NCBI GenBank assembly: GCA_964645485.1
Contig: CAZXZO010000023.1
Span: forward strand, 9,831-25,165
Source of the DNA: an uncultured Candidatus Poseidoniales archaeon
GTDB lineage: Archaea > Thermoplasmatota > Poseidoniia > Poseidoniales > Thalassarchaeaceae
Direction of reading: 5' to 3'
Length of the DNA stretch: 15,335 nucleotides
The notes below the pieces were generated by a model. It worked only from the letters and a program-made list of their open reading frames with translations. It searched no databases and had not been told where the DNA came from. Below, piece by piece: positions 256-15,335 of the stretch (positions are counted from its first letter, which is position 1; every line of letters starts with the position of its first letter). The position numbers were made by a program, and so were the translations under genes.

Positions 256-266
256 GCGAACTAATG
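256..266 (+). promoter_or_regulatory. possible BRE/TATA-like promoter (GCGAA-CTAATG) of the downstream membrane protein gene
   Basis: The motif ends 24 nt before ATG 291, a spacing compatible with a leaderless archaeal transcript. It resembles the motif at 2519-2534. Confidence 0.3.
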
Positions 267-290
267 ATATGTTGCTCGCGCTCGGCAGTA

Positions 291-1175
291 ATGAAGCACA
301 TGGTTGACATCAACACAGCGATGCAAGCAGCGAGGGCTGAAAACCGCCGAAACAAAGGAGGAGGTGGTGACAGAAAGGGAAAGCCCGGAGGGAAACTTGG
401 AGTTGAGAACTTTGACCCTAAGGACCATGTTGAGAAAGAAGTGGCAGACACAATCTCAATGTGGTTAGTCCTAACTTTTGGTGTATTAATTGCGGCTATC
501 ATGAGATATGTTATGATGCCCGGAATGGAGGGGCCGAAATCAGTTCTGTGGTTTCTTCCCCTAACACTGGTGGTAATCCTTCCATCACTACACAGAGTCC
601 TAGTTCCAGAACCATACAAATCACGCTACACCTTTGGTAATTGGTTTCGAGCAGGGATGCTTTTTATCTTCACTTGGTTAGCACTTTCATTCATTCTAGT
701 AAACCCGCCAATCGGCGATATCGGTGCACCGGATATCGCAGGGAAGATGACGGTTGTAATTGTTGATGGTGAAGATATCTTGATTGACAGCGAAAATCTA
801 ACCAGTAGCAAGAATTCTTTCATTCTTGATAGGAATGGCAGTAGCGCAGAAGCATGGATGGTATTCTATGTCAACGACAATACTGACCCTAGCCTTGCAA
901 CCCTTAATTTGACTTCCCTTTACAATGCACCAAATCAAACGCCAACAGAGTTGGCAGGGGCAACTGTTGGTGACTATAGTAACTGCACCGCAATTACCAA
1001 TGGTTTGCGTGAATCTCAACAAAATGCACTTCAAAAACATGAGTACGATGTTTGTGCTGCAATCAACCTCGGAGTATTAGATGCTGGAGAATACGAGATT
1101 ACCATCACACTGAGTGAAGATGGAGATCCTTGGTTCAACACTCGAACCATCAAGTATGATTTGACAGTTGTTTGA
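291..1175 (+). CDS. membrane protein (~294 aa): basic Gly-rich N-terminus, three TM helices, C-terminal extracellular beta-rich domain; TM core possibly archaeal EMC6-like
   Basis: ORF track gives 264..1175; the start is more likely ATG 291 or 300. Three hydrophobic segments lie in 453-710 (ISMWLVLTFGVLIAAIMRYVMM; VLWFLPLTLVVILPSL; WFRAGMLFIFTWLALSFILV-NPP). The C-terminal domain has N-x-S/T sequons (NLT, NGS, NLT, NQT, NCT) and one Cys pair. The EMC6-like assignment is from pattern recollection only. Confidence 0.85.
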   Translation: MKHMVDINTAMQAARAENRRNKGGGGDRKGKPGGKLGVENFDPKDHVEKEVADTISMWLVLTFGVLIAAIMRYVMMPGMEGPKSVLWFLPLTLVVILPSLHRVLVPEPYKSRYTFGNWFRAGMLFIFTWLALSFILVNPPIGDIGAPDIAGKMTVVIVDGEDILIDSENLTSSKNSFILDRNGSSAEAWMVFYVNDNTDPSLATLNLTSLYNAPNQTPTELAGATVGDYSNCTAITNGLRESQQNALQKHEYDVCAAINLGVLDAGEYEITITLSEDGDPWFNTRTIKYDLTVV

Positions 1176-2452: not shown

Positions 2453-2518
2453 ATTGTGACTGAAGCCAAAAAAAACACTTCATGTGAAACGGGACCTATG
2501 CGTAGCATAGTCCCGGCG

Positions 2519-2534
2519 CCGAAAGCGGTTAATG
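2519..2534 (+). promoter_or_regulatory. probable BRE + TATA-like promoter of P1 (CCGAAAG-C-GGTTAATG)
   Basis: A purine-rich CGAAAG directly precedes TTAAT, ending 29 nt before ATG 2564. A GGTGA ribosome-binding-like motif (2566-2570) lies 8 nt before ATG 2579. Confidence 0.45.
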
Positions 2535-2578
2535 CAGGCACCGTCTCCCCGTCATGGATTGTCATGGTGATGAGGCAA

Positions 2579-5500
2579 ATGAAGAACAAGACATTGACTG
2601 CTATAATTTTAGTTTTAGTAATGATTCTAGTACCTTGGACAAGCATGCTGAATGGAACTGAATTGGATGGGGATTTAGGGCCTGCTTGGGCTACTGGTTC
2701 TTCAACGGCTTCTGCAGATACTGGATTGAATTTCACAAGTCCGAATGCAACTCATGGAAGTGATGCAAATCTCAACTTGACCAATGTCAGCGGTATGGAA
2801 AGCGTACTCTTGTTTAGTTTCCCAATGACAACACCCGGTGGCCCTGTCCCCTCGGCTGGTTCAATCCGAAGTGCGACTCTCACCCTATACATCACCGGTG
2901 GGAATTCACAAGGTTCGATGTATGCTTTCGCTGCACCACTAAAGGCTGATTTTGATGAAGGAAATGCAACATGGTTCAACAACACTCACAACACCACTTG
3001 GCAAGTTGGCGGGGCAAATGGAACTAACGATAGAGGTTCATGGGAGCCACGTAGTAGCTCGTTTTCATCGAGTTCGTCATCATTTTCAATCAATGTGACT
3101 TCTATCGCTCAAAATGCATTATCAAACAACTTCAATGATGTTAATATCACTGTATCCTCAGTTGGTCTTGGAATCCTAACTGTTGCTAGCCGTGAACACC
3201 CAACCACCTCAAAACGTCCAAGTTTGTCATTTGATTACGATAGTACTCCACCTACCTCAGGGTCGGCAATTGTTCGTGGCGCACCGAGTAATGACAGTGT
3301 TCCAATCACTGGTTCATTTTTGCTAACTGCAGACACCACCCCAACTATCGGGTGGAGTGGATTGAACGGTTCTGGGGTTGAATTACATATTTCACAATCG
3401 AGTGATTTTCGAAGCATTGACGATGGTTCTTGGCTATTCTCATCTTGGGGAAATAGTGGTTTTACGATGTCTGGTGGAAATGGAACTTTCACAATTCCAA
3501 GTGCCTCAAGCCTTGAATTAGGAATGGCGGCTTACTGGAGAATAAGGGCATCAAAGGGGGACCAACTCTCAGAATGGCAAACAGGACAATTCCTCCTCCC
3601 CTTCATCAATGCGACAAATAACGGAAACAATTCAGCAACTTTTGAACTTCTCAGAGATTCGTTAGGGGTTGATGGCGGAACTGTTCATGATGCTTGGCTT
3701 AGATCAGGAAGTTCTAATTTGAGCGCTGGGCACAACGAGAACATTTGGGTTGGAAATTCAAATAACACATCACGAAATGATATGGCGGGCTTAATCCACG
3801 TTGACCTTGACCATACAGGTTTGCACTCAAACGCAACGATTCTAAGCGCATACATGCAGATGAGAAGAACAGACAGGCAGGGTAATGCATGGATTAGCAT
3901 TCACGAGTTTAGTCAAACAAATTGGAGCGAAGATACAGCATCATGGGACAATTATTCAGGCAACCAATCATGGATGAATGGTGGACTTTCAAACAATATT
4001 GGCTCCTCTTTGGATATCATAAATGGTGGTAAATCTGGAAATATCTTCAACTTCGATGTGACATATGCGGTCCAGGAATACATGAGAGGCGTTCACCAAA
4101 GTGGGACCGGAGATGGAATATCTCTAATTCTACAATCAAAGGGTGCGAACAATGAATGGGCAAGATTTGGAGGGAGCGAAGAAAACGCGTATACCCTGCG
4201 CCCAAAGATGGTGATTACCTATGCTTGGGGGGACGGTACTGGCCCAACAGACACGGTTACTGTACAATCTCCTCTTGATGGACGAGGTGTTTGGTCGGTC
4301 GTGAACAACAATATGACTGCTGATTTAACCCCCACCCTAAATTGGTCGACAACAGGTCACACAAATGACGAGGTCCGAATAGAATTAGCCGGTAATGAGG
4401 ATTTTACCGAAGGTCCATTCCTTCGTGTTGATAGCAGAGATTTCAGTAGTGGAATAAACACTACAGCAGGAACATTCACTGTTCCTTCAGGCTGGGGCCT
4501 TGATTACGGCGAAGATTACTATTGGCGCGTTCGTTGGATTGAAGATGGCGATTGGGGTGGTTATTCATCGACCCCAGGATTTTTCCTATCAACAATAAAT
4601 TCAACTTGGGTTTCAAACAATACTTGGCAATTCAGACTTAGGCATTCCAATGCATCGAACACTATGGCAACGCCATTTTGTGCTGATACCTACATCGATA
4701 GTCTAGGGCCAAGTTCAACCAATGATGCAGGCGAATTATCAATCTCAAATAGCCAATATACTGTCTTTGGTTGCGACATACGTAGTCACATTTTGCCCCC
4801 AGGACTCGCTGTGACAGATGTTGAATTACGATTGAAATCATCATTCATTTCTGGCACAATGTCAGCATCCGCATATGAACTGATTAATCACCGATGGGAA
4901 GAGGGAAGCGCAACTTGGGAGAATTACGAAGGAGCAAATAACTGGTCTGGCGTTGGGGCATCTGGTTCCGACCGAGGACAACTGCTTGATTCTACTACGA
5001 TTTCTGGAACCAGTTCAACATGGTTCACATGGAATGTCACAGTTGCAGTACAGAACTCAATGCGATGGGACGTACCTGTTGACTTCCTGATAACAGGTAC
5101 TGGCTCAGGAGCCGTAGCAATGTATGACAAAGAAAATGCTGGAAGTGCTGCTGAATACCCTGAACTTGTCATCAATTACAGTCCAGGGTCAATGGCTGTC
5201 CCAGACCCACCTCAACCCGCATCCCCAATCAATGGAGTTTGGTCTGTCACCACCGGGTTACTAATCGCCCCAGAAAAGACTCCTGAACTAACTTGGAATC
5301 ATACTGGAAGTATATCTGCAAACGGTTGGGTTGTCGAAATGGACACCACTAACACCTTCAACAGTAATGACTTGAGAGTTGCTCGTTCATGGGTACAAAT
5401 CAATGATTTTGACGTATTGAATCGCACGTACACCCCATCTTCTAATCTCAGCACAAGCTCTGTTTGGTATTGGAGAGTAAGAGGGTCTTCCCTCACAAAT

Positions 5501-8500
5501 CAACTTGGAAACTGGAGTAATGTGGCTGATTTTGTTGTCCCGAATATTGAGAGTGGTTCTCTTGATTCAGATAACTCATACATTGTCATCAGGCCTGGTG
5601 CTGCGGTGGCAACTCAAGGGATTCCAAGTGTACCCGACACATGGATAGATGCCAACACCAATAGAAACGCGTCGCATCACGGAGCAGGACATTTAGTGGT
5701 TGGATGCAATACAGCCGATTGTCCGAAATCGTCAATGCTGTCATTCCCATTGAGTGAACTTCCTCAACCGAATAATGCAAGAATTGTGAGTGCAGAACTG
5801 CATCTTTGGCCGTTCTCAGTTAATTCAACAACAAGTGGAGATGCACCCCGAATCTCAGTTCACAGAACTCTGCGTAATTGGGATGTAAATGCTACTGGTG
5901 CATCTTGGACAGGAGATGCCAGCAATAATTCCACCACCCTGTGGAGTCAGGCTGGAGGAATAGGCTCGGGCGATGTAGGTCCGTTAATCGATATCTCTAG
6001 CCCGGTCGCATCGAGTTGGTTCAAACTCAATGTGACAGAATTAGTTCACGGTGCGGTCACCGACGGTGAAAACAGAGTGAACATGACTTTACGCTCAAAC
6101 ACAAATGAGTATGCTGAAGCAACGTTCTACAGCGCAGACTACACATGGGCTTCTTCCCGACCATACCTGAAACTCTGGTATCGAAATGGAACTGGCTCGG
6201 CGTCAGTTGGAACACCTACACTAACTGAACCAGCAAATGGGAACATTACTTGGGATATCTCTGGACACGCGCTAGGAACTGACCAATCACCATTACTAAC
6301 ATGGACTCACCCTACATCATCCAGTGTAGATGGTTGGAGACTTTTCATCTACAATGATAGTAATGACGTAAGAGATGGATATCAGATATACGATAGCCGG
6401 ATGGATACTGGTTTTGACCTAGTAAATATGACATGGACTCCTGGTTCTAACTTTGCGACTGATTCACATCAGCGGTGGTTTGTGCAAACAATCAAGGATG
6501 ATATCTATGGAAACAGAAGTAGTAGTTTCACGTTTGATGTACCAAATGCATTAGGGTCTGAAATTAATTCTACAGATGCTCGTTTGAGGGTCCTTGAAGG
6601 TGGTGCATTAACTCGATTATCTCTACCCTTGTCATTTGGGGACACTACTCTTGATTCGTATTCACCAAACAGCAATACAGGAACCAGTCAGACACTTTCT
6701 GTTGGCAGAAGTCCATCCACATTCAGTACTAATCATAATTCTTGGAGTGCAATGAGAATTGACCTTTCCTCATTACCAATTTCTGAACCTTGGGAAGTAA
6801 TCACTGCTGATGTTGAGTTGTATTGTAACGGTTGTTCAACTTCTTCCTCAAATTCGATGACTATGACTGTACATCCTCTACTGACTAATTTCACCGAAAA
6901 TTCAGCCACATACAACAACCATAATTCGACAACCTCCTGGCCAACTGCAACAATTGGTGGAGTAGTTGACTCGGCGACCGTTTATGGGGCAGGGTGGTAT
7001 TCATGGAATGTTACCCAACTAATGCAAGCAGCCCGTTTGCGTGGTGACGACACTCTCCTCTTGGCTTTTACAGGAAGTAGTACTTCAAACACCATCGTAA
7101 AACAATTCCACAGTTCAGAATATAATGGAAATAGAGACCTCAGACCGGTTCTCAATATCACACACCGAATCGGAACTCAGTGGTTGCCTGCTGATGCAAC
7201 AAACCCTGTTCCTGCAATTACCTCAACCTTGTGGGAAATAGGTGCAGTACGACCCTCTGAAAGAGATCCTGTGACCCTCCAATGGTCACACCCAGCCCCT
7301 TCAAATGTGAGCGCATGGCAAGTTCAATTGAGTTCACAAACTAGTTTTGTCGAGAGCGTAACAAACACCCTAGACTCGAGTGATTCCCTAAGTTATGATG
7401 GGAGTTTTGGTACTAACCCACTTTCGTACACAATTGATGTTCAAGGAGACTTACCATCAGGTTGGAGCGGCTGGATGGATGCTTGGTTACATTGGAGAGT
7501 GCGACCGATAATAGGCGATTACGTTGGTAATTGGACAGATGGCGGCGAATTCAGAGTCCCTGCTGACCAAGGAAGCGATGATGGACTAGGAAACCATACT
7601 CTGACAATGAGCCGTGGTTCTGTATTCTACTCAAGTGGATATTTGCCAACAGTGCCCGATACCTGGATTGACTCCACACCAAATGCAGGAACCAACACCG
7701 CACAGGGGAGTAACTCTACTTTGGCAGTTGGAAACTCTCCATTCCAGTCAGGTCAAGAGTCGGTAGCCTTAGTGCAGTTTGACCTCGGTGAATTGCCATT
7801 CCCACCAAATATGCTAGCAACGACTGTATCTTTGAAGATGTACAGATCAGGCTACTCAACATCTGGAACTGCAACAGTTGGTATACACGAGTGTAATTCC
7901 TTCTCGGAAACAGATACATGGAATTCGTATTCACTGTCAACTAATTGTAATGCCACAGCGGCATCAACACTCAGTAAATCAGTTGGCGGATTTGGTGGCG
8001 TATGGTACGATTGGGATGTTACCACTTTGGTACAAGCAGCAGGCCACAATGGCACTGTTTCAATGGCAATAAAAGCCCCCAATTATGCAGGATATCTACA
8101 ATTCACATCCTCTGAAGCAAGTTCAAGCACATATCGACCACAACTAGTGATTGGATATGTTGACAACCAAAATGGCACAACTCCTCCTGCAACTCCGGTT
8201 TTGTCGTGGCCAAATGACCAAGAGGTAATTTACTCAGTTTCAGATTATGATGACTTCCTGTTAGATGCAACAGTGAGGCCAAACCTAACATGGAACAATG
8301 CTGGTGACACAACCGGTTATATCGTTAGGATGTGGAATTCAACTGATTCCAATATGTTCTATTCATGGAACGCAACGAGCAATCAGGGATTGTTCTCCAC
8401 AACATCAAGTCTTGCAACTTTCGCACCAGGATGGGACTTGGAAGAAGGTGGTGTTTATTATTGGAATATTCAAGGAATTAACGGCTCTATTTTGGGGCCA

Positions 8501-11500
8501 CGCTCTTCAACATGGGCGTTTGGAATTGGAGACCCGAATACTCAGTTACTCGGAACTAATCTGTGGACCATGGATTATCAAGAAGGAAACGATGTTGAGG
8601 AATTCAACCATCCAACAGTGGATGACACCTATATCAGCGAAGGAAACCCATCTTCGAATTACCAAACCGATGCACTGAAGATTGGTGAAGGTTGTACAGG
8701 TGGGCCATCGAGTAGTGAGAAATGTATTGGAATTTTCCAAGTAGACCTCAGTCAAGTACCACTCACTGGAGATGCAAGAGCACACTCTGGTCAGTTGGCA
8801 ATTTGGCTTGAATCGGTATCCGCTCCAACCTCAGGTTGGCTGGATATTACTGCATATGCTTTGCTGAATAATAACTTCCAAGAGGGACAAGCAACTTGGA
8901 ATCAAGCGTCGCTTGGTAACAATTGGTCCACAGCGGGAATTGGTGCTGGAACTGATAGAAGTACAATTGCTCTGAACACCGTCAGAATTACTGCAACCTC
9001 TCAAGCAGGTTGGTTCTATATCGATATCAGTGGCGCTCTAGCCGCAAATGTCAATGGAACATTCTCAGTTGTTTTGGTCGGTACACCTCAACCCGTAACC
9101 CAGGGCACTGCACAAATAACTGCAACTTTTTCACACAGTGAATCGCCATCAGTTTCCCAACGGCCTACTCTGACCTTCAATTACACCAATGTCTTTGATA
9201 TTTCACTAACAGGTTCAGCAACTACCACCTCAGATACTCCTGTACAAATGTCTGCGACTTTACTCGATGTTGATAATCAAGTGATTAGCGGAAATGTCGA
9301 ATGGACTACCTCAAACGGTGTCATCGATAGTACCGGATTATTTACCCCAGACCAAGTTGGAAATGTGACAATCTCTGCACGCTTTGGTCGTGTAATAGTA
9401 ACTCACACAATTGTCGTGCAACCAGGAATTCCAACCACACTTATCGGAGGGCCAATGGCTTCCACGATTACCAGTGATGAAACTGTTTCAATGTGGTTCA
9501 ATGTACTTGATGCAAATAGCAATTTAGTCCCTGGAGTCTCTCTTTCATTTGCCGTAACCAACGGCTCCATCGCTGAAGGGAATTCGCATACAACCCCGTT
9601 AGGAGCAATTACCTACATGCCTTGGAACACCGGTATTCAGTGGGTCAATGTTACTTGGAGTGGCGGCTCGTTATCTTTGCAAATCACTGTTACTGAAGGC
9701 CTGCCTGATTACATCGTGATGACTGGATTCCCTTCGATTCCTGCTGGTGAATCTAGAGATTTCAATTGGACTGCCTATGATGCCCATCATAATCCGGTCA
9801 CCCCAAGTCGACTATTGTCGGTGAATTGGACTGTCGAGGATGGGAATGTAACTCAAGTTGGTGAATACACCGCTGATAAAGTTGGATTTTGGAATTTGAC
9901 TTTGACAACAGGTTACGGATTATCAATCGTTCAGAATGTTGAAACAACACACGGTGCTATATTGGACCTAGAAGTAACACCAACTTCCTATTCATTGACA
10001 GCAGATGAAGACTTGACAATCAATACTGTACGAATTGATATTCGTGGAAATCGCTTGAATGTAACTCTACCATCAAGTGCTTGGGTGATATCAAATGGTA
10101 CTCTGTTTGAAGAAGACCCCGTACGTTGGAGTCCAATTGGTGCTGCTACGCAGACTATTGATGCAACTCTAGAAGGAGTCACAACTCGAGTAATTATTTC
10201 GGTTACTCACGGAGAAGCAGTTGGAATCGATATCAGAATTAGCGGTAGCGAAATTGTAATGTCGGGTGATTCTGTGTCAATTGATGCATATAATTATGAC
10301 CAGTTTGGCAACGAATGGATTGCCGAAATTGATGTTTGGGAAATAGATGAATCGATGTCTGACCAGAGTTGGTTGACTGGCTCGCTCTCATATGCCGACT
10401 TTGAAGCAGTGACAGTTGGCACATGGACAGTTACTGCAACTTACATGCATAACGGAGTGACGGCAATGACGGATTCTCAATCCTTTACAGTTGAGGAGGG
10501 GCCACTAGCGAGTATTGTCCTTTCAGGACATGGCACTCAGATAACTGCAGATGAGACGTTAGCATTGAATCCAATTACTAGAGATCAAAATGCTAACCTA
10601 TTGCAATCAGATGGTTTGATGTGGTTTATTTGGGATGCTGACAGCCCTACTACACAACCTCCTTCCTGTATTAATTGGGGCAATGACTTGACTGACACAT
10701 TACAAAACAATGGCTACAACTGGGAAGCGTCAGTAGAAGGTACATGGCGAATATGTGCTATCTCTGGACCTTATCAAACTGTGATTGAGGTAAGTGTAAG
10801 CCATGGAGAGGCTGCGGTACTTTACCAGAATCCAAGTGCTAACACATTGGTTGCAGGCGCTACAATTTCAATCGAACTAACTGCTGCAGACTCAGATGGA
10901 AACGTCTTTGCAATTGACGTAGATTGGTCGGGAAGCGCACCAACTGACTTCACCGACGAAGAAGAGGTCGGGAAATATTCGTGGCACGGAACTACAATGG
11001 GTAACTACAGTCTAGAGTATTCATATGCAGATCTAAGTGGAACATGGGATGTATCGGTTACTCCGTCCATTCTTGAAACTCTAGAGATGACAATCAGCCC
11101 AAGCACAGATGTTCTCCAACAAGAGACCATCACTATTGATGTGAGGGCCTTTGATGCATTTGGAAATGAAATCGACGTCCCAGTCGAGGCAACTGTCTAT
11201 CATGGGGGAGACCTTCATGTCACCACTAAGGTTTCAAATTCTCAGTGGCAAATTTACATGCTTGATGAAGGGCAGTCAAAAATTACTGTTGTGGCAGACG
11301 AAAAGTATGATGAGGAGTATGTCCAAGTTTCTCAAACGATGATGGGATTCTTTGAGGCTGGTGGAACTCTATACTATATTGGCGCTGGGCTTCTTGCATT
11401 GATAGTTCTTGGAGTAATTGCCACTCTAGTTGTTCTCCTAAGGAGAGCAGGAGCTGATGATGAAGATGATGATGATTTCTATGACGAATATGACGATTAT

Positions 11501-11707
11501 GAGGAAATAGGTGACGGCGAGTACGACGAACCGGAGTCAATTTCTGATGATTATGTTGAGCAGGGCGACACAGGAGAATCTGAAAGCGGTGGTACTGATG
11601 CGAACATTTCCGTAGATGAGGACGGCACAGAATGGTGGGAAGATGAAGAAGGTGTCTGGTGGTACCGTTCTGTCGACATGGACGACTGGGAAATCTGGGA
11701 AGATTAA
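2579..11707 (+). CDS. P1: giant (~3042 aa) single-pass surface glycoprotein with 7 DNRLRE/CBM96-like modules, 6 FN3-like spacers, 8 Ig-like repeats, TM helix and acidic Trp-rich tail
   Basis: Uninterrupted ORF (track 2456..11707). The start is placed at ATG 2579 (MKNKTLTAIILVLVMILVPWT, signal-peptide-like, GGTGA 8 nt upstream). Repeat motifs are listed in the repeat features. TM segment LYYIGAGLLALIVLGVIATLVVLL (11369-11440) is followed by RR. The protein is rich in Ser/Thr/Asn/Gly/Trp with dense N-x-S/T sequons. Confidence 0.95.
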   Translation: MKNKTLTAIILVLVMILVPWTSMLNGTELDGDLGPAWATGSSTASADTGLNFTSPNATHGSDANLNLTNVSGMESVLLFSFPMTTPGGPVPSAGSIRSATLTLYITGGNSQGSMYAFAAPLKADFDEGNATWFNNTHNTTWQVGGANGTNDRGSWEPRSSSFSSSSSSFSINVTSIAQNALSNNFNDVNITVSSVGLGILTVASREHPTTSKRPSLSFDYDSTPPTSGSAIVRGAPSNDSVPITGSFLLTADTTPTIGWSGLNGSGVELHISQSSDFRSIDDGSWLFSSWGNSGFTMSGGNGTFTIPSASSLELGMAAYWRIRASKGDQLSEWQTGQFLLPFINATNNGNNSATFELLRDSLGVDGGTVHDAWLRSGSSNLSAGHNENIWVGNSNNTSRNDMAGLIHVDLDHTGLHSNATILSAYMQMRRTDRQGNAWISIHEFSQTNWSEDTASWDNYSGNQSWMNGGLSNNIGSSLDIINGGKSGNIFNFDVTYAVQEYMRGVHQSGTGDGISLILQSKGANNEWARFGGSEENAYTLRPKMVITYAWGDGTGPTDTVTVQSPLDGRGVWSVVNNNMTADLTPTLNWSTTGHTNDEVRIELAGNEDFTEGPFLRVDSRDFSSGINTTAGTFTVPSGWGLDYGEDYYWRVRWIEDGDWGGYSSTPGFFLSTINSTWVSNNTWQFRLRHSNASNTMATPFCADTYIDSLGPSSTNDAGELSISNSQYTVFGCDIRSHILPPGLAVTDVELRLKSSFISGTMSASAYELINHRWEEGSATWENYEGANNWSGVGASGSDRGQLLDSTTISGTSSTWFTWNVTVAVQNSMRWDVPVDFLITGTGSGAVAMYDKENAGSAAEYPELVINYSPGSMAVPDPPQPASPINGVWSVTTGLLIAPEKTPELTWNHTGSISANGWVVEMDTTNTFNSNDLRVARSWVQINDFDVLNRTYTPSSNLSTSSVWYWRVRGSSLTNQLGNWSNVADFVVPNIESGSLDSDNSYIVIRPGAAVATQGIPSVPDTWIDANTNRNASHHGAGHLVVGCNTADCPKSSMLSFPLSELPQPNNARIVSAELHLWPFSVNSTTSGDAPRISVHRTLRNWDVNATGASWTGDASNNSTTLWSQAGGIGSGDVGPLIDISSPVASSWFKLNVTELVHGAVTDGENRVNMTLRSNTNEYAEATFYSADYTWASSRPYLKLWYRNGTGSASVGTPTLTEPANGNITWDISGHALGTDQSPLLTWTHPTSSSVDGWRLFIYNDSNDVRDGYQIYDSRMDTGFDLVNMTWTPGSNFATDSHQRWFVQTIKDDIYGNRSSSFTFDVPNALGSEINSTDARLRVLEGGALTRLSLPLSFGDTTLDSYSPNSNTGTSQTLSVGRSPSTFSTNHNSWSAMRIDLSSLPISEPWEVITADVELYCNGCSTSSSNSMTMTVHPLLTNFTENSATYNNHNSTTSWPTATIGGVVDSATVYGAGWYSWNVTQLMQAARLRGDDTLLLAFTGSSTSNTIVKQFHSSEYNGNRDLRPVLNITHRIGTQWLPADATNPVPAITSTLWEIGAVRPSERDPVTLQWSHPAPSNVSAWQVQLSSQTSFVESVTNTLDSSDSLSYDGSFGTNPLSYTIDVQGDLPSGWSGWMDAWLHWRVRPIIGDYVGNWTDGGEFRVPADQGSDDGLGNHTLTMSRGSVFYSSGYLPTVPDTWIDSTPNAGTNTAQGSNSTLAVGNSPFQSGQESVALVQFDLGELPFPPNMLATTVSLKMYRSGYSTSGTATVGIHECNSFSETDTWNSYSLSTNCNATAASTLSKSVGGFGGVWYDWDVTTLVQAAGHNGTVSMAIKAPNYAGYLQFTSSEASSSTYRPQLVIGYVDNQNGTTPPATPVLSWPNDQEVIYSVSDYDDFLLDATVRPNLTWNNAGDTTGYIVRMWNSTDSNMFYSWNATSNQGLFSTTSSLATFAPGWDLEEGGVYYWNIQGINGSILGPRSSTWAFGIGDPNTQLLGTNLWTMDYQEGNDVEEFNHPTVDDTYISEGNPSSNYQTDALKIGEGCTGGPSSSEKCIGIFQVDLSQVPLTGDARAHSGQLAIWLESVSAPTSGWLDITAYALLNNNFQEGQATWNQASLGNNWSTAGIGAGTDRSTIALNTVRITATSQAGWFYIDISGALAANVNGTFSVVLVGTPQPVTQGTAQITATFSHSESPSVSQRPTLTFNYTNVFDISLTGSATTTSDTPVQMSATLLDVDNQVISGNVEWTTSNGVIDSTGLFTPDQVGNVTISARFGRVIVTHTIVVQPGIPTTLIGGPMASTITSDETVSMWFNVLDANSNLVPGVSLSFAVTNGSIAEGNSHTTPLGAITYMPWNTGIQWVNVTWSGGSLSLQITVTEGLPDYIVMTGFPSIPAGESRDFNWTAYDAHHNPVTPSRLLSVNWTVEDGNVTQVGEYTADKVGFWNLTLTTGYGLSIVQNVETTHGAILDLEVTPTSYSLTADEDLTINTVRIDIRGNRLNVTLPSSAWVISNGTLFEEDPVRWSPIGAATQTIDATLEGVTTRVIISVTHGEAVGIDIRISGSEIVMSGDSVSIDAYNYDQFGNEWIAEIDVWEIDESMSDQSWLTGSLSYADFEAVTVGTWTVTATYMHNGVTAMTDSQSFTVEEGPLASIVLSGHGTQITADETLALNPITRDQNANLLQSDGLMWFIWDADSPTTQPPSCINWGNDLTDTLQNNGYNWEASVEGTWRICAISGPYQTVIEVSVSHGEAAVLYQNPSANTLVAGATISIELTAADSDGNVFAIDVDWSGSAPTDFTDEEEVGKYSWHGTTMGNYSLEYSYADLSGTWDVSVTPSILETLEMTISPSTDVLQQETITIDVRAFDAFGNEIDVPVEATVYHGGDLHVTTKVSNSQWQIYMLDEGQSKITVVADEKYDEEYVQVSQTMMGFFEAGGTLYYIGAGLLALIVLGVIATLVVLLRRAGADDEDDDDFYDEYDDYEEIGDGEYDEPESISDDYVEQGDTGESESGGTDANISVDEDGTEWWEDEEGVWWYRSVDMDDWEIWED
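2711..9184 (+). repeat. protein-level tandem array: seven DNRLRE/CBM96-like modules with a period of ~320-340 aa
   Basis: Modules are at 2711-3238, 3686-4222, 4682-5179, 5633-6181, 6638-7165, 7655-8158 and 8621-9184. Each starts with D-[TA]-x-[IL] (ADTGL, HDAWL, ADTYI, PDTWI, GDTTL, PDTWI, DDTYI). Most carry [WF]-x-E-x(2-3)-[AT]-[TS]-W and [WF]-x-x-x-[ND]-V-T. Each ends in an S-x-E...R-P-x-L-x-x-x-Y-type motif (RPSLSFDY, RPKMVITY, YPELVINY, RPYLKLWY, RPVLNITH, RPQLVIGY, RPTLTFNY). Spacers contain P-x-[LI]-x-W and aromatic-W-R-V-R-type motifs (YWRIR, YWRVR, YWRVR, RWFVQ, HWRVR, YWNIQ). The family name comes from motif recognition, not an HMM run. Confidence 0.85.
9197..11338 (+). repeat. protein-level array of eight Ig-like (Big-type) stalk repeats in P1
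   Basis: Beta-rich units of ~80-100 aa, mostly ending in V/T-x-x-G, with a D-x-x-G-N-like turn: DVDNQ, DANSN, DAHHN, DIRGN, DQFGN, DQNAN, DSDGN, DAFGN. Confidence 0.75.
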
Positions 11708-11738
11708 TCATTTAATTGACTAATTTCAAGTACCAAAC

Positions 11739-11764
11739 AAGGTGTCTCCTTTAGGAGACACCTT
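11739..11764. terminator. perfect 12-bp inverted repeat (AAGGTGTCTCCT-TT-AGGAGACACCTT); terminator-like or RNA-processing hairpin
   Basis: Read directly from the sequence, 31 nt after the P1 stop. The stem is followed by a short T run on the plus strand (CACC-TTTT) and by TTGTTT on the minus strand. Function is inferred. Confidence 0.6.
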
Positions 11765-11810
11765 TTGCAACAATACGGGGGATAATTGATGAATGAAGGC
11801 GTGCCTCATA

Positions 11811-11817
11811 GGTGAGG
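11811..11817 (+). promoter_or_regulatory. ribosome-binding site GGTGAGG of P2
   Basis: GGTGA lies 9 nt before ATG 11825, matching the motif and spacing seen before P1. Confidence 0.55.
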
Positions 11818-11824
11818 CGATGCC

Positions 11825-14800
11825 ATGTTCCGCAACCCTCTGATATCTCTGATGATTGCAATCATCGTGGTTAGTCCTTGGACAATTGCTTTACAAAATC
11901 GAGATTTCATTGATAATACTGAGGTTTTCAATTCTTCAACACCTCCTTCCCCCAACGATGATGACTACACAGATTATGGCAACGGCTCTGCTGCAAATTC
12001 TTACTGGGTAGGCGCCTCAGGAAATCCTGGCATCCAAGACACTTGGTTGAGTGCGGCTCAACCAACCAGCAACTACGGAAGTGACACCGAATTGAAGGCA
12101 GGCTTCTCAGCAAATGCAAGCAGTCGCTGGAATACTCTATTCGGAATCGAATTATCTCAAGCAGGGATGTTTACCAATGTGACAATACAATCAGCAACTT
12201 TGGCATTGAATGTCAAACAACTTAGTGGTCAGCCTGAAATTCGTAGTTGGGTAGTATATGATGAGGACTGGGACGCAGACACAACAGATTGGAACTCTTG
12301 GAGTGTTGGAGGAGCACTTGGAAATGATGACTCTGGCGGCCTAATGGATGAGGTGACAATAACATCTAGAGGATGGATTGAAGTCGATGTTACAAGGTCT
12401 GTAGAAGTAGCATATGATCGCTACATCAATGGGAATGACCCTTCCGCATCTGTACTCTTGACTGGCCCAGCATGGGGTGAAGAATGGGCAACTTTCCACT
12501 CAAGTGAATATGTCTTCTCATCTGAAAGGCCTCACCTAAATGTCACATACGACTGGGGAGTAACCGGGCTACCTATCACCACACAATGGGTGGATGTCTT
12601 TCCAAAACCACCACACCGTATTGATGCTGATAACCTTCTCAATTTAGCAGCGCAGGCTAGAAGTGGCACAGGATATCCTACCACAGGTATGGCTTCATGG
12701 TCTTCAAGCACGGGTTCAGTTGACTCGGGTGGACTGTTCACTCCTGATTTATCTGGCACGACACAAATTACTGCAACTATTGGGGGAGTACAGGGCTCTT
12801 TAGAACTACAAGTTGACCCAGGGACTCCTGTCAATCTAGATTTAGAAACGAAATCGGTTGAGTTGACAATAGATGACTATTTCCAATTTAATTCAACATT
12901 TGTTGACGCTAATGGAAATTCTGTTGATAGTGCTACTTTGACTTGGTATTCAGACTATGGTACCGTAAATGAAACCGGATACTATCAACCCACAACTGTT
13001 GGTTCGGACCAAGTTACAGTAACTTGGCAGTCACTATTTGCTACCGCTGATATCACTGTTTCAGCCGGTGCGCCTGCGAATATTTTGATTGAATCAAATT
13101 TGTCAGTTGCCTCCGGGGAACAAGTTGCAATAATCTACACGGTTGCAGACAGACTTGGGAATTTACTTCCAAATCAAGCAGCAGGCTCAATTAATTGGGA
13201 AGTTGAAAGTGGCCAAGTTGATGGAGTCGGTATCTTTACAGGCGGCGAAGTTGGAACTTGGCGAATCAATGCTACAAGTACCAGTGGTGCTAGTGGGCAC
13301 ACCTATGTGGAAGTAACACCCGGTGCACTGTCCTCTATCGAATTAATTCCCCCTAACGGCTCCCAGCCCGCTGACCAACCGGTTCTTCTTATCGTGAATT
13401 GGCAAGACGTCATGGGTAATGTAGTGCCGGTAAGAATACCACTTTCAAATTGGACTGCAGAAGATGGGAATTTCAGGATGACACCTGCTGGTGTTGAATG
13501 GCTTCCGCGTAGAGAAGGTGTTTGGCAAGTTGGAGTCCATGTTGAGGAAGAATGGTCAAACATCACAATAAATGTCACACACGGGTCGGTAGACCGGCTT
13601 TTGATTGCCACTGAAACAGAAGTGATGAGTGCTGATGCAATTCTCCCTCTGACTCTTTCAGCAGAAGATTCCAAAGGAAACCGATGGCAAGTAGATGGTT
13701 CTTGGTCTATTTTAGAACCTGAAGGGGCACCGTGGTTAAGCCCGGTTGAAAACGGTGCTCAATTTGAGGGCGTTCTAATTGGAAATTGGACAATAAAAGC
13801 CGAGTATAGCGACGGGAATAACGTCTTTTCCACCTTGTTAGTTTTGCAAGTTATTCCCGGGTCTTTAGCGCAAATCATTCTCCAAGGTGAAGGCTCCAAA
13901 GTATCAGCAGATAGTTGGATTGATTTTGAACCTACATTCTTTGATGAAGATGGAAATCAATTAAGTGATATACAATTGAACTGGAGTTTTGTCCACCAAG
14001 GCTCACAAACAGATAGAACAGAAGAGATGCGGACAAATAATGCAATCTGGTATCCAGTCCTCTCTGGACATCATGAAATCGAAGTTGAAGCAGCGGGAGT
14101 GTTTGCATCATTAGGTATTGATATTGACCCAGGTATTGCCCACACAATTAGAGCCTTAGAAACTCATGGAGTAGTGGTAGAAAGTGGCAACATAACTAGC
14201 ATTCAAATTAACGCAACCGACCTCGATGGAAATGACTTCGGTAGCGATGTAACATGGTCTATCCCTCACAGCAGTGTGGATTTGGCTAATGGTACTAGAG
14301 CAGGAGAATATCTTCTCAGAGGAATTCGAGCCGGCACTCATAATTTACAGTTCCAATCAGGTCTAGCAGATGGTACAGTAACAGTAACTGTCCTTTCTGG
14401 TGATGTTGTCAAAATAGAGGTTAATATTGCCAAGGAGAATGTTAAGACGGGTGATATTGTTGATGTTGAAGTAAATGCATTCGACTATGGTGGAAACAAA
14501 ATCCCACTGAATCCAGACTCCGTTCAATTGTCAAGCAGCGCCGGTAATTTTGGCCATTCAACTGGCGACTTTTGGCAGATGGCCATTCAGAATTCGGGGT
14601 CTCAGCAAAGAATTAATGTTGTTTACGGAACTGCTCAAGGAGAGGCTTACATTGATGTCTCACCAGACCCTTTTAGGGCATTTGGCGATTCAAATTTAGC
14701 GACTAGCCTGTGGGCTGGGATTGGTCTGATTGTGGTTTTATTTGCCCTGTTAATCGTTAGACTACGAAATAAAAGCAGAGAAGAAGAAGATGCACTTGAC

Positions 14801-15335
14801 CATCATTTTGGAGTTACTGAAGCACCAAAGGTGGTTGACCCGATGGCTGGATACAAGCCTTCTAAGAAAGCAAGAGCTGCTGCGCGCCAAGCATTCACTA
14901 AAATGCAACCACAAATGCCTCCCCAACAACAGACTGGATATCAGCAAGTGCCACAAATGGCGAGCCCTGGCTATCCTCAATCACCTACAGCACCAGCAGC
15001 GTCGGCAATTGAAAACCCTCCTCAACAAGTTGAACAAGCAGCACCTGAAGTATGGACAAATTCCACATCAGACACCCAAGTCAGTCAAGAATCTGGTTTA
15101 GATGAATCAACATGGACAACTGAACAAGTTTGGCAATGGGGAAGAACTCAAGGCTGGAACGATGAGCAAATTGCTGCCTACGAACTGGTGTATGACCAAA
15201 GTGTTCGAAACCCAGTACCACAATCTAGTGAACCTGTGGCAGTCTCTAAAACAGTACAGCAAGAAGTTGTAACTATTGAGGAAAATGTTGAGACAGCACC
15301 TCTCTCACCAGCACAAACCGTGGAGGAGGAATTAC
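11825..15335 (+). CDS. P2: single-pass surface protein paralogous to P1, 3'-partial (at least 1170 aa): signal peptide, 1 DNRLRE/CBM96-like module, 8 Ig-like repeats, TM helix, Pro/Gln-rich tail
   Basis: Translated by hand: MFRNPLISLMIAIIVVSPWTIALQNRDF... stays open to the window end (1170 codons + 1 nt), so the ORF track omits it. The module spans 12035-12550 (QDTWL...GWIEVDVT...FHSSE...RPHLNVTY). TM segment LWAGIGLIVVLFALLIV (14708-14758) is followed by RLRNKSR. Confidence 0.95.
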   Translation, partial: MFRNPLISLMIAIIVVSPWTIALQNRDFIDNTEVFNSSTPPSPNDDDYTDYGNGSAANSYWVGASGNPGIQDTWLSAAQPTSNYGSDTELKAGFSANASSRWNTLFGIELSQAGMFTNVTIQSATLALNVKQLSGQPEIRSWVVYDEDWDADTTDWNSWSVGGALGNDDSGGLMDEVTITSRGWIEVDVTRSVEVAYDRYINGNDPSASVLLTGPAWGEEWATFHSSEYVFSSERPHLNVTYDWGVTGLPITTQWVDVFPKPPHRIDADNLLNLAAQARSGTGYPTTGMASWSSSTGSVDSGGLFTPDLSGTTQITATIGGVQGSLELQVDPGTPVNLDLETKSVELTIDDYFQFNSTFVDANGNSVDSATLTWYSDYGTVNETGYYQPTTVGSDQVTVTWQSLFATADITVSAGAPANILIESNLSVASGEQVAIIYTVADRLGNLLPNQAAGSINWEVESGQVDGVGIFTGGEVGTWRINATSTSGASGHTYVEVTPGALSSIELIPPNGSQPADQPVLLIVNWQDVMGNVVPVRIPLSNWTAEDGNFRMTPAGVEWLPRREGVWQVGVHVEEEWSNITINVTHGSVDRLLIATETEVMSADAILPLTLSAEDSKGNRWQVDGSWSILEPEGAPWLSPVENGAQFEGVLIGNWTIKAEYSDGNNVFSTLLVLQVIPGSLAQIILQGEGSKVSADSWIDFEPTFFDEDGNQLSDIQLNWSFVHQGSQTDRTEEMRTNNAIWYPVLSGHHEIEVEAAGVFASLGIDIDPGIAHTIRALETHGVVVESGNITSIQINATDLDGNDFGSDVTWSIPHSSVDLANGTRAGEYLLRGIRAGTHNLQFQSGLADGTVTVTVLSGDVVKIEVNIAKENVKTGDIVDVEVNAFDYGGNKIPLNPDSVQLSSSAGNFGHSTGDFWQMAIQNSGSQQRINVVYGTAQGEAYIDVSPDPFRAFGDSNLATSLWAGIGLIVVLFALLIVRLRNKSREEEDALDHHFGVTEAPKVVDPMAGYKPSKKARAAARQAFTKMQPQMPPQQQTGYQQVPQMASPGYPQSPTAPAASAIENPPQQVEQAAPEVWTNSTSDTQVSQESGLDESTWTTEQVWQWGRTQGWNDEQIAAYELVYDQSVRNPVPQSSEPVAVSKTVQQEVVTIEENVETAPLSPAQTVEEEL
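12587..14668 (+). repeat. protein-level array of eight Ig-like stalk repeats in P2, collinear with those of P1
   Basis: Units end in VDPG, VSAG, VTPG, VTHG, VIPG, IDPG, VLSG and VSPD. Turn motifs in repeats 2-8 are DANGN, DRLGN, DVMGN, DSKGN, DEDGN, DLDGN and DYGGN. Confidence 0.75.

What the first reader, a model, noticed from the sequence alone, without database searches (positions are those of the whole stretch)
2579..15335. Candidate two-component surface system: long (7-head) and short (1-head) putative glycan-binding proteins on matched 8-Ig stalks with different cytoplasmic tails
Seen in sequence: two adjacent, co-oriented genes follow the same plan (signal peptide, DNRLRE/CBM96-like head or heads, eight Ig-like repeats, TM helix, tail). 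They differ in head number (7 plus 6 spacers versus 1) and have unrelated tails. I recognised no catalytic domain in either. Established: DNRLRE domains occur in Methanosarcina disaggregatase and large prokaryotic surface proteins, and the related CBM96 family binds alginate as an accessory module of a lyase. Inference: an enzyme-free, membrane-anchored multi-CBM array with a short partner could be an adhesion or polysaccharide-capture apparatus for particles, algal surfaces or self-aggregation. The tails could couple it to cytoplasmic partners. I know of no description of this paired architecture.
Basis: partly seen in the sequence, partly recalled or inferred. Interest (0 to 1): 0.8.

Follow-up and report, generated by a model that had tools for sequence, protein, structure and literature searches.

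The report
Marine archaeal surface fibril gene family
Marine Group II archaea (Poseidoniales) carry a conserved set of enzyme-free, membrane-anchored surface proteins, one of which always displays exactly seven sugar-binding-type modules on a long stalk. The set probably serves attachment to polysaccharides or particles, and all members share a previously undescribed tryptophan-rich tag on their cytoplasmic ends.

Summary
P1 (window 2579-11707) has 7 DNRLRE/CBM96-type heads, 6 FN3 spacers, 8 Ig-like domains, a TM helix and an acidic tail. P2 (11825 to the contig end) has 1 head, 8 Ig-like domains, a TM helix and a tail. Neither has a catalytic domain.

Three points need correcting:
- It is a three-gene family. 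A headless 6-Ig paralog, P3, follows on the next contig.
- The tails are related. All three end in a shared Trp-rich module of about 30 residues. P2's copy is hidden in the window because the contig ends first.
- Head number does not vary. Every P1 examined has 7 heads and 6 spacers, and each head position forms its own clade across two families.

The heads fold like the alginate- and chondroitin-binding modules 7VBO and 8WAB, but they lack the basic alginate-binding groove of 7VBO.

In 201 Poseidoniales genomes the family is all-or-none by genus. It was found in 99/99 genomes of one family and in all 27 genomes of six Thalassarchaeaceae genera. It was not found in 72 genomes of seven small-genome genera, so it is dispensable.

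An unlinked 232-aa soluble protein with the same Trp-rich ending occurs in the same 17 genera.

Best reading: lectin-like adhesion or capture fibrils tied to one cytoplasmic partner. Glycan binding, co-assembly and expression remain untested. I class it as a new variant of a known kind.

The parts
2579..11707 (+). P1 gene: about 3040-aa type-I membrane surface protein. The ORF is open from the GTG at 2456; the likely start is the ATG at 2579.
   Evidence: Orthologs of 3018-3166 aa start at the equivalent Met.
2579..2659 (+). P1 N-terminal hydrophobic signal segment
   Evidence: Hydropathy scan, aa 45-68 of the ORF.
2717..3229 (+). P1 head H1 (DNRLRE/CBM96-type beta-sandwich)
3230..3688 (+). 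Spacer S1: an FN3-like domain plus the leading strand of the next head
   Evidence: and homology to S5/S6, which are modelled as FN3.
3689..4219 (+). P1 head H2
4220..4681 (+). Spacer S2 (FN3-like)
4682..5173 (+). P1 head H3
5174..5635 (+). Spacer S3 (FN3-like)
5636..6178 (+). P1 head H4
6179..6640 (+). Spacer S4 (FN3-like)
6641..7162 (+). P1 head H5
   Evidence: Modelled.
7163..7657 (+). Spacer S5 (FN3)
7658..8152 (+). P1 head H6
8153..8620 (+). Spacer S6 (FN3)
8621..9178 (+). P1 head H7
9197..11329 (+). P1 stalk: eight Ig-like domains (aa 2248-2958)
   Evidence: HMM built from the P2 Ig domains finds 8. Colinear with the P2 stalk.
11330..11455 (+). P1 conserved juxtamembrane motif (GFFEAGGTLYYxGAG) and TM helix
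   Evidence: This is the best-conserved segment between families.
11456..11704 (+). P1 cytoplasmic tail: acidic linker ending in the Trp-rich module (about 11612-11704)
11741..11766 (+). Stem-loop (9-11 bp stem) plus a U-run between P1 and P2
   Evidence: The stem sequence is conserved in two same-genus loci; the U-run is not.
11825..15335 (+). P2 gene, cut by the contig end. Full length in close relatives is about 1230 aa.
   Evidence: The missing end lies at G000:C33:3-218.
12035..12547 (+). P2 single DNRLRE-type head
12581..14662 (+). P2 stalk: eight Ig-like domains (aa 253-946)
   Evidence: AlphaFold model, Foldseek hits to Ig strings, HMM count.
14663..14770 (+). P2 juxtamembrane motif (DPxRAFGDSNLATSLW) and TM helix
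14771..15335 (+). P2 cytoplasmic tail (Pro/Gln-rich), truncated before its Trp-rich terminal module

Best explanation
P1, P2 and P3 (P3 lies on the next contig) are paralogous, non-enzymatic type-I membrane glycoproteins. Together they form a lineage-specific surface fibril system of Poseidoniales.

Each protein is exported through an N-terminal signal. Each stands on a rod of Ig-like domains (8, 8 and 6) and is held by one C-terminal TM helix with a paralog-specific conserved juxtamembrane motif. In the cytoplasm each has an acidic or Pro-rich linker and ends in a shared Trp-rich module of about 30 residues.

P1 adds a fixed array of seven mutually diverged CBM96/DNRLRE-type beta-sandwich modules alternating with six FN3 domains. 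From typical domain sizes I estimate a reach of about 80 nm if extended. P2 shows one such module at the stalk tip.

Most likely the modules are lectin-like sites with different specificities rather than seven copies of one site. They would bind polysaccharides or glycoconjugates on particles, on phytoplankton exopolymers or in the cell's own glycocalyx, giving adhesion or capture. The common tail module would dock all family members to one cytoplasmic partner.

Shown: architecture, homology, fold, positional orthology, synteny and phyletic pattern.
Inferred: glycan binding, the ligand, co-assembly and the role of the tail.
For: - Domain hits: DNRLRE in 7 stretches (P1) and 1 stretch (P2); CBM96 in P1.
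- A profile of the eight heads hits 7vbo (E 3e-9) and 8wab (E 2e-5) over their full length.
- The model of H5-S5-H6-S6 has pLDDT 81. Its top folds are 8wab and 7vbo for the heads and FN3 tandems for the spacers.
- The P2 model has pLDDT 82 and 8 Ig-like domains.
- The P1 ectodomain has 77 N-x-S/T sequons, 26 per 1000 aa against a genome median of 4.3.
- No catalytic family was detected.
- Exactly 7 heads and 6 spacers are present in 15 genomes of two families. Each head position is monophyletic, with support 0.93-1.0.
- The cluster sits beside the RFC small-subunit gene in both families.
- The family is all-or-none by genus. It is present in 129 of 201 genomes and was not found in 72 genomes of seven small-genome genera, including a one-contig genome.
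- All paralogs share the tail module. It also ends a thrombospondin-repeat surface protein and the soluble protein P0033.
- P0033 occurs in exactly the same 17 genera as the stalk family. Archaellin does not follow that pattern.
Against: - No binding has been measured.
- The 7VBO alginate-binding residues (K10, K22, K25, K27, K31, R36, Y159) are replaced by small or polar residues in all heads. Those positions are at or below average conservation within each orthologous head.
- The heads are acidic (pI 4.1-5.6) and the ectodomain has only 24 Lys in 2910 aa. Direct binding of polyanions is therefore doubtful unless a metal mediates it.
- A fixed domain count with diverged repeats is typical of structural proteins, not of classical repeat adhesins.
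- Expression could not be checked. The gene is not named among highly transcribed MGII genes in PMC9723583.
- The co-distribution evidence may rest on very few independent loss events.
Confidence: 0.45

Rival explanations
1. Purely structural envelope component. P1/P2/P3 form the glycoprotein coat (an S-layer-like or brush-like glycocalyx) of these cells. The beta-sandwich heads would be building blocks or spacers with no ligand-binding role, and the three lengths would set layer thickness.
For: - Fixed architecture, and positional orthology of every domain.
- Constant locus next to a housekeeping gene.
- Very high N-glycosylation sequon density and an acidic ectodomain.
- C-terminal TM anchoring, as in several archaeal S-layer glycoproteins (my knowledge).
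- Foldseek hits of the stalk include the bacterial S-layer proteins Sap, SbsC, SbsB and EA1.
- The CBM96 groove is not conserved.
Against: - The whole family was not found in 72 genomes of seven genera, several over 90% complete and one a single contig. It is therefore not an essential wall.
- It is not listed among the top-transcribed MGII genes in PMC9723583; this is weak evidence.
- The Foldseek matches are generic Ig strings.
Confidence: 0.25
2. A two-component long/short glycan-capture apparatus that binds alginate-type algal polysaccharides as CBM96 does, with different tails coupling to different cytoplasmic partners.
For: - CBM96/DNRLRE membership and fold.
- A 2026 paper notes CBM96 as enriched in MGII and reads it as alginate binding (PMC13753752).
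- In Thalassarchaeaceae a PfkB-type sugar kinase, a KDPG aldolase and an enolase-family dehydratase lie a few kb downstream.
Against: - There are three paralogs, not two.
- The tails share one terminal module.
- The alginate-binding residues are absent and the heads are acidic.
- The downstream sugar-acid genes lie beyond an oppositely oriented panB (ketopantoate hydroxymethyltransferase) gene and are not linked in the other family.
- The only lyase-like gene found is a heparinase II/III-type protein inside a glycan-synthesis cluster.
Confidence: 0.1
3. Self-directed lectin scaffold or cell-cell adhesion. The heads bind the cell's own exported polysaccharide or the N-glycans of neighbouring fibrils. 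This would organise a capsule or drive aggregation, by analogy with DNRLRE domains in Methanosarcina proteins that act on the cell's own methanochondroitin.
For: - The genome encodes a surface-glycan synthesis and export cluster: GT4 transferases, UDP-GlcNAc 2-epimerase, an ABC-2 exporter and a heparinase II/III-like protein.
- The two characterised relatives bind uronic-acid polymers: 7VBO (PMC9971899) and 8wab (entry title).
- P1 itself is probably heavily glycosylated.
Against: There is no linkage or co-distribution test between that cluster and P1. No evidence was found that MGII cells aggregate. The ligand is unknown.
Confidence: 0.1

Closest known systems
CBM96 founder module TM6-N4 of alginate lyase Dp0100, Defluviitalea phaphyphila (PDB 7VBO; PMC9971899)
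   Same: Same domain family by HMM (Pfam CBM96 E 3e-46 for P1; head profile against 7vbo E 3e-9) and the same beta-sandwich fold (target-normalised TM 0.72).
   Different: 7VBO is a single accessory module of an enzyme and has a basic groove (K10, K22, K25, K27, K31, R36, Y159). Here seven modules sit in an enzyme-free membrane protein. The groove residues are absent and their positions poorly conserved, and the modules are acidic.
Chondroitin-sulfate-binding CBM of a chondroitinase (PDB 8WAB, deposited as 'DNRLRE domain-containing protein')
   Same: Best structural match of the heads (target-normalised TM 0.77-0.78; profile E 2e-5).
   Different: 8WAB is also an enzyme appendage. I could not map its binding residues, so ligand transfer is untested.
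DNRLRE-domain cell-surface proteins and disaggregatase of Methanosarcina (PMC2447325; Pfam Disaggr_repeat)
   Same: Archaeal surface proteins carrying DNRLRE domains. NF033679 also matches in the Methanosarcina acetivorans control genome.
   Different: Disaggr_repeat is only sub-threshold here (30.5 bits against a cut-off of 33.9). There is no beta-helix or catalytic part. The alternating FN3 array, the 8-Ig stalk, the TM anchor and the Trp-rich tail were found only in Poseidoniales and unclassified Thermoplasmatota records.
C-terminally membrane-anchored archaeal S-layer glycoproteins (for example haloarchaeal csg); from my own knowledge
   Same: Signal peptide, large acidic N-glycosylated ectodomain, and a single C-terminal TM anchor.
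   Different: The family is missing from whole genera. It has long cytoplasmic tails with a conserved terminal module. No lattice-forming evidence exists.
Eukaryotic Ig/FN3 type-I adhesion receptors (DSCAM, contactins, LAR): a functional analogy only
   Same: Fixed number of diverged Ig and FN3 domains, one TM helix, and a cytoplasmic tail bearing a short conserved docking motif. Foldseek ranks these proteins high.
   Different: No homology beyond the generic folds. The distal modules here are CBM-type, not Ig.

Membership tests
DNRLRE domain (NCBIfam NF033679) | HMM score above the curated cut-off (34 bits) | tested here: met
   P1 scores 320 bits in 7 stretches; P2 scores 68.7 bits in 1 stretch. 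All 8 places are over the cut-off in the genome scan.
CBM96 (Pfam PF24517 / CAZy) | HMM score above the Pfam gathering score (26 bits) | tested here: met
   P1 scores 157.6 bits in 5 stretches. P2 alone gives no Pfam hit at E <= 0.01.
CBM96 (Pfam PF24517 / CAZy) | Two-sheet beta-sandwich fold like 7VBO | tested here: met
   Foldseek: 7vbo target-normalised TM 0.72 and 8wab 0.77, probability 1.00, on a model with pLDDT 81.
CBM96 (Pfam PF24517 / CAZy) | Basic alginate-binding groove (K10, K22, K25, K27, K31, R36, Y159 of 7VBO) | tested here: not met
   K/R occupancy at the six basic positions is 0-17% in every head clade. Groove positions fall at the 0-40th percentile of conservation in the P1 heads.
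CBM96 (Pfam PF24517 / CAZy) | Module appended to a carbohydrate-active catalytic domain (the CAZy definition of a CBM) | tested here: not met
   No catalytic family was found in P1, P2 or P3.
CBM96 (Pfam PF24517 / CAZy) | Demonstrated carbohydrate binding | not testable with these tools
   Needs recombinant modules and glycan arrays or ITC.
Disaggregatase-related repeat (Pfam PF06848) | HMM score above the gathering score (33.9 bits) | tested here: not met
   30.5 bits, one stretch over head H4.
Archaeal S-layer glycoprotein (functional class) | Present in all members of the lineage as the main wall protein | tested here: not met
   Not found in 72 of 99 sampled genomes of the same family, covering seven whole genera.
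Archaeal S-layer glycoprotein (functional class) | Very high expression and lattice formation | not tested
No structural data exist.
Giant tandem-repeat adhesins (Bap/SiiE/LapA/MpIBP type) | Variable number of near-identical tandem repeats | tested here: not met
   The heads are 22-32% identical to each other. The count is fixed at 7+6 in 15 genomes, and each position is its own clade.
WW domain / DUF2510 (PF10708), for the C-terminal Trp-rich module | Match to the family HMM or to solved WW domains | tested here: not met
   No Pfam hit on the tails at E <= 10. No WW chain appears in the PDB profile search. PF10708 gives no hit on these genes in the genome. The resemblance is by eye only.

The most novel reading that the evidence does not exclude
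The shared Trp-rich C-terminal module is a new archaeal cytoplasmic docking tag. It would tie a whole set of otherwise unrelated surface proteins (P1, P2, P3 and thrombospondin-repeat proteins) to one intracellular partner or scaffold, possibly the co-distributed soluble protein P0033 or the Pro-rich tails themselves. That would give Marine Group II cells an integrin- or cadherin-like transmembrane adhesion apparatus. P1 would be its long multi-specific lectin arm.
Probability: 0.15. Interest if true: 0.85.

Novelty: new variant of a known kind. Interest (0 to 1): 0.6.

Why it matters
Marine Group II archaea are among the most abundant archaea of the surface ocean. They are uncultured and nothing is known about their cell surface. 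How they associate with particles and phytoplankton blooms is an open question, argued so far from archaella, thrombospondin and flotillin genes (PMC6461757).

This family offers a concrete and testable candidate. It is a large, enzyme-free, heavily glycosylated fibril with seven individually conserved CBM-type modules. It was found in every sampled Poseidoniaceae-type genome and in a defined subset of Thalassarchaeaceae genera, and it was not found in the small-genome genera. That gives a genomic marker for comparing lifestyles.

The result also warns against reading 'CBM96 in MGII' as alginate binding, because the binding groove is not conserved.

The shared cytoplasmic Trp-rich tag, with its co-distributed soluble protein, points to an undescribed way of anchoring or sorting archaeal surface proteins.

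Tried and rejected
No result exists either way.
- A single head searched against PDB sequences gave only chance hits to antibody light chains. The profile of eight heads was needed.
- Pfam calls the stalk only weakly (Big_1/Big_2, below threshold). Structure prediction was needed.
- Tail module: no Pfam hit, no PDB sequence hit and no DUF2510 hit. A profile search of 1.84 billion proteins found 157 proteins at E <= 0.001. Most carry the motif at the very C-terminus. The multi-copy hits I scanned gave only sub-threshold or unrelated Pfam matches.
- I tested whether the family travels with the archaellum, the 'adhesion' marker of the literature. It does not. Three genera have P1 without archaellin and two have archaellin without P1.
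- Search for alginate and GAG lyases in this genome: PF08787 and PF02278 gave nothing. The one PF05426/PF07940 hit is a heparinase II/III-like protein inside a glycan-synthesis cluster, not a degradative locus.
- Literature: I found no paper describing this architecture. One paper mentions CBM96 in MGII in passing.
- The protein atlas returned only 'hypothetical protein' clusters for P0033.


Full report
**What is in the window.** The window is G000:C23:9831-25165 and ends at the contig end. Two long co-oriented ORFs fill 2456-11707 (P1, 3083 aa from a GTG) and 11825-15334 (P2, 1170 aa, open at its 3' end). Upstream and divergent lies the replication factor C (RFC) small-subunit gene (NCBIfam equivalog, E 1.6e-127). 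The likely P1 start is the ATG at 2579, which opens a hydrophobic signal segment. Orthologs begin there. Close relatives are labelled Candidatus Poseidoniales / Thalassarchaeaceae MAGs.

**Checking the architecture.**
- NCBIfam DNRLRE_dom matches seven stretches of P1 (E 3e-96) and one of P2 (E 6e-19). Pfam CBM96 matches P1 (E 3e-46, five stretches).
- The heads recur every 325-340 aa. Between them lie spacers of about 155 aa with a conserved YWRVR-type motif.
- An AlphaFold model of H5-S5-H6-S6, built on 17 sequences, has mean pLDDT 81 and is all-beta. Foldseek puts 8wab (chondroitin-sulfate-binding CBM, target-normalised TM 0.77) and 7vbo (alginate-binding CBM96, 0.72) on top for the heads, and fibronectin type III tandems for the spacers.
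- A profile of the eight heads hits 7vbo (E 3e-9) and 8wab (E 2e-5) over their full length.
- A model of P2 residues 1-1011 (pLDDT 82) shows a signal helix, one head (48-244), eight Ig-like domains (253-946) and a TM helix. Foldseek finds strings of Ig domains.
- An HMM built from these Ig domains counts 8 in P1, 8 in P2 and 6 in P3.
- P2 residues 50-994 align colinearly with P1 residues 2040-3009 (27% identity, E 4e-85).
- No catalytic family is detected anywhere.

- *There is a third gene.* In relatives P2 is followed by P3 (about 910-1150 aa): signal, six Ig domains, TM helix and a long Pro-rich and acidic tail. In this genome contig C33 begins with the missing end of P2, then P3, then panB (the ketopantoate hydroxymethyltransferase gene), exactly as in the longer relatives.
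- *The tails are related.* P1, P2, P3 and the short paralogs of other families all end in a module of about 30 residues with invariant tryptophans. P1 ends in the type '...DEDGTEWWEDEEGVWWYRS.DMDDWEIWE'. P2 and P3 end in the type '...PGT..GE.GWY.D..G.PS.W.....G.W...'. The same ending closes a 1168-aa thrombospondin-repeat surface protein on C22 and an unlinked 232-aa soluble acidic protein, P0033, on C1. It matches no Pfam family, no solved structure by sequence and not DUF2510. A profile search of 1.84 billion proteins finds 157 proteins at E <= 0.001, mostly with the motif at the extreme C-terminus.
- *Head number does not vary.* All 15 complete P1 orthologs examined (3018-3166 aa, two families) have 7 heads and 6 spacers. 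Database relatives with 31-100% identity are all 2936-3108 aa, apart from one partial record. Each head and spacer finds its best match at the same position in the ortholog. In a tree of 114 heads each position H1-H7 is a separate clade (support 0.93-1.0). The array was therefore fixed before the families split, and there is no repeat turnover.
- *P1 evolves quickly.* It is 32% identical between families, against 68% for the neighbouring RFC gene, and the divergence is even along its length. The juxtamembrane/TM segment is the best-kept part.

**Distribution.**
- In 201 genomes sampled across the order, the P1 two-unit profile is found in 126: 98/99 of family f3 and 27/99 of the window's own family f1.
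- The stalk/TM profile, which also detects the short paralogs, is found in 129. That is every genome of 17 genera and none of 72 genomes in seven f1 genera with genomes of 1.2-1.6 Mb, including a one-contig genome.
- Family f2 has only a P3-like gene beside RFC and no DNRLRE domain.
- A stalk tree gives three clades: P1; P2 together with the headless 8-Ig gene of f3; and P3 together with the f2 gene.
- Archaellin has a different genus pattern.
- The soluble protein P0033 occurs in exactly the same 17 genera as the stalk family.
- Related genomes are not independent, so this may reflect only one or two loss events.

**Do the heads bind glycans as CBM96 does?** The 7VBO residues shown by mutagenesis to bind alginate (PMC9971899) map to small or polar residues in all eight head clades. 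K/R occupancy at the six basic positions is 0-17%, and these positions are at or below average conservation within each P1 head. The heads are acidic (pI 4.1-5.6). The P1 ectodomain has 24 Lys in 2910 aa and 77 N-glycosylation sequons, 26 per 1000 aa against a genome median of 4.3. Family and fold membership holds, but the alginate mechanism does not transfer. Binding of some other ligand is possible and untested.

**Interpretation.** Four features argue for outward-projecting glycoprotein fibrils:
- a type-I topology with a long rod;
- no enzyme domain;
- distal modules whose only characterised relatives bind polysaccharides;
- heavy predicted glycosylation.

The family is missing from whole genera, which argues against an essential wall and for an ecological trait. 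The seven heads are mutually diverged (22-32% identity) yet individually conserved. That suits seven different sites, or a fixed structural ruler, better than multivalency for one ligand.

I rate lectin-like adhesion or capture fibrils with a common cytoplasmic docking tag at 0.45. A purely structural coat gets 0.25, the original alginate-type two-component reading 0.1, and a self-glycan or cell-cell scaffold 0.1.

**Limits.** Expression could not be examined. The complex predictor was closed. No paper I could search describes the architecture. One 2026 paper notes CBM96 in MGII and assumes alginate binding. NCBI records call the protein 'DNRLRE domain-containing' or hypothetical.

Noticed in passing
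G000:C1:36729-37424 (L048:2730-3428, protein P0033): A 232-aa acidic soluble protein with no Pfam family ends in the same Trp-rich module as P1. It occurs in exactly the same 17 genera as the P1/P2/P3 stalk family (126/201 genomes) and was not found in the 72 genomes of the seven genera that lack the family. It is a candidate partner or competitor for whatever reads the tag.
   Followed up: partly
G000:C22:19612-23136 (L047:2613-6116, minus strand) and the neighbouring ORF L047:2-2497: Surface proteins with thrombospondin type 3 repeats and beta-propeller repeats. The 1168-aa one ends in the P1-type Trp-rich module. These are probably the 'thrombospondin' genes cited as adhesion evidence for MGII in PMC6461757.
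   Followed up: partly
window 11741-11766 and 11775-11824; L024:9885-10000; L025:9885-10000; L035:10648-10779: The P1-P2 intergenic region holds a strong stem-loop (z-score -4.8 for the whole spacer). Its stem sequence is conserved within the genus while the flanks vary. A second conserved element lies just before the P2 start. Another genus has a different strong hairpin at the same place. It could terminate or stabilise the P1 transcript and so set the P1:P2 ratio.
   Followed up: partly
L024:18171-20936; same genes at L044:5375-8092 (G000:C33): Downstream of P3 and an oppositely oriented panB (ketopantoate hydroxymethyltransferase) gene lie a PfkB-family sugar kinase, a KDPG/KHG aldolase and an enolase-superfamily dehydratase. 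This is a sugar-acid catabolic set. It neighbours the cluster in the Thalassarchaeaceae loci I examined but not in the family f3 loci.
   Followed up: no
G000:C8:16360-26160 (L049:7361-17159): A heparinase II/III-like protein (650 aa) sits in a glycan synthesis and export cluster with GT4 glycosyltransferases, UDP-GlcNAc 2-epimerase, a nucleotidyl transferase and an ABC-2 exporter. This suggests that the cell makes a surface polysaccharide.
   Followed up: partly
window 264-1175 (+): A 303-aa ORF with no Pfam or NCBIfam hit lies beyond the RFC gene. ORFs of about 300 aa (300-308) sit at the same place in several related loci (L033, L036, L039, L042, L043, L045, L046).
   Followed up: no
G000:C33:203-3600 (L044): The P3 gene of this genome carries a run of N (a scaffold gap) inside its acidic Ser/Glu/Thr-rich tail repeat, and the frame changes across it. 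Contigs C23 and C33 are adjacent in the real genome.
   Followed up: yes
window 2456-2620: The database copy of P1 (3028 aa, P0003) starts at the Met inside the hydrophobic segment, which cuts the signal peptide. The ATG at 2579 is the more likely start.
   Followed up: partly
G000, position not determined: The crude ORF scan found another ORF of about 2988 aa with 32 N-x-S/T sequons per 1000 aa, and several smaller ORFs with up to 48 per 1000. These may be further heavily glycosylated surface proteins.
   Followed up: no
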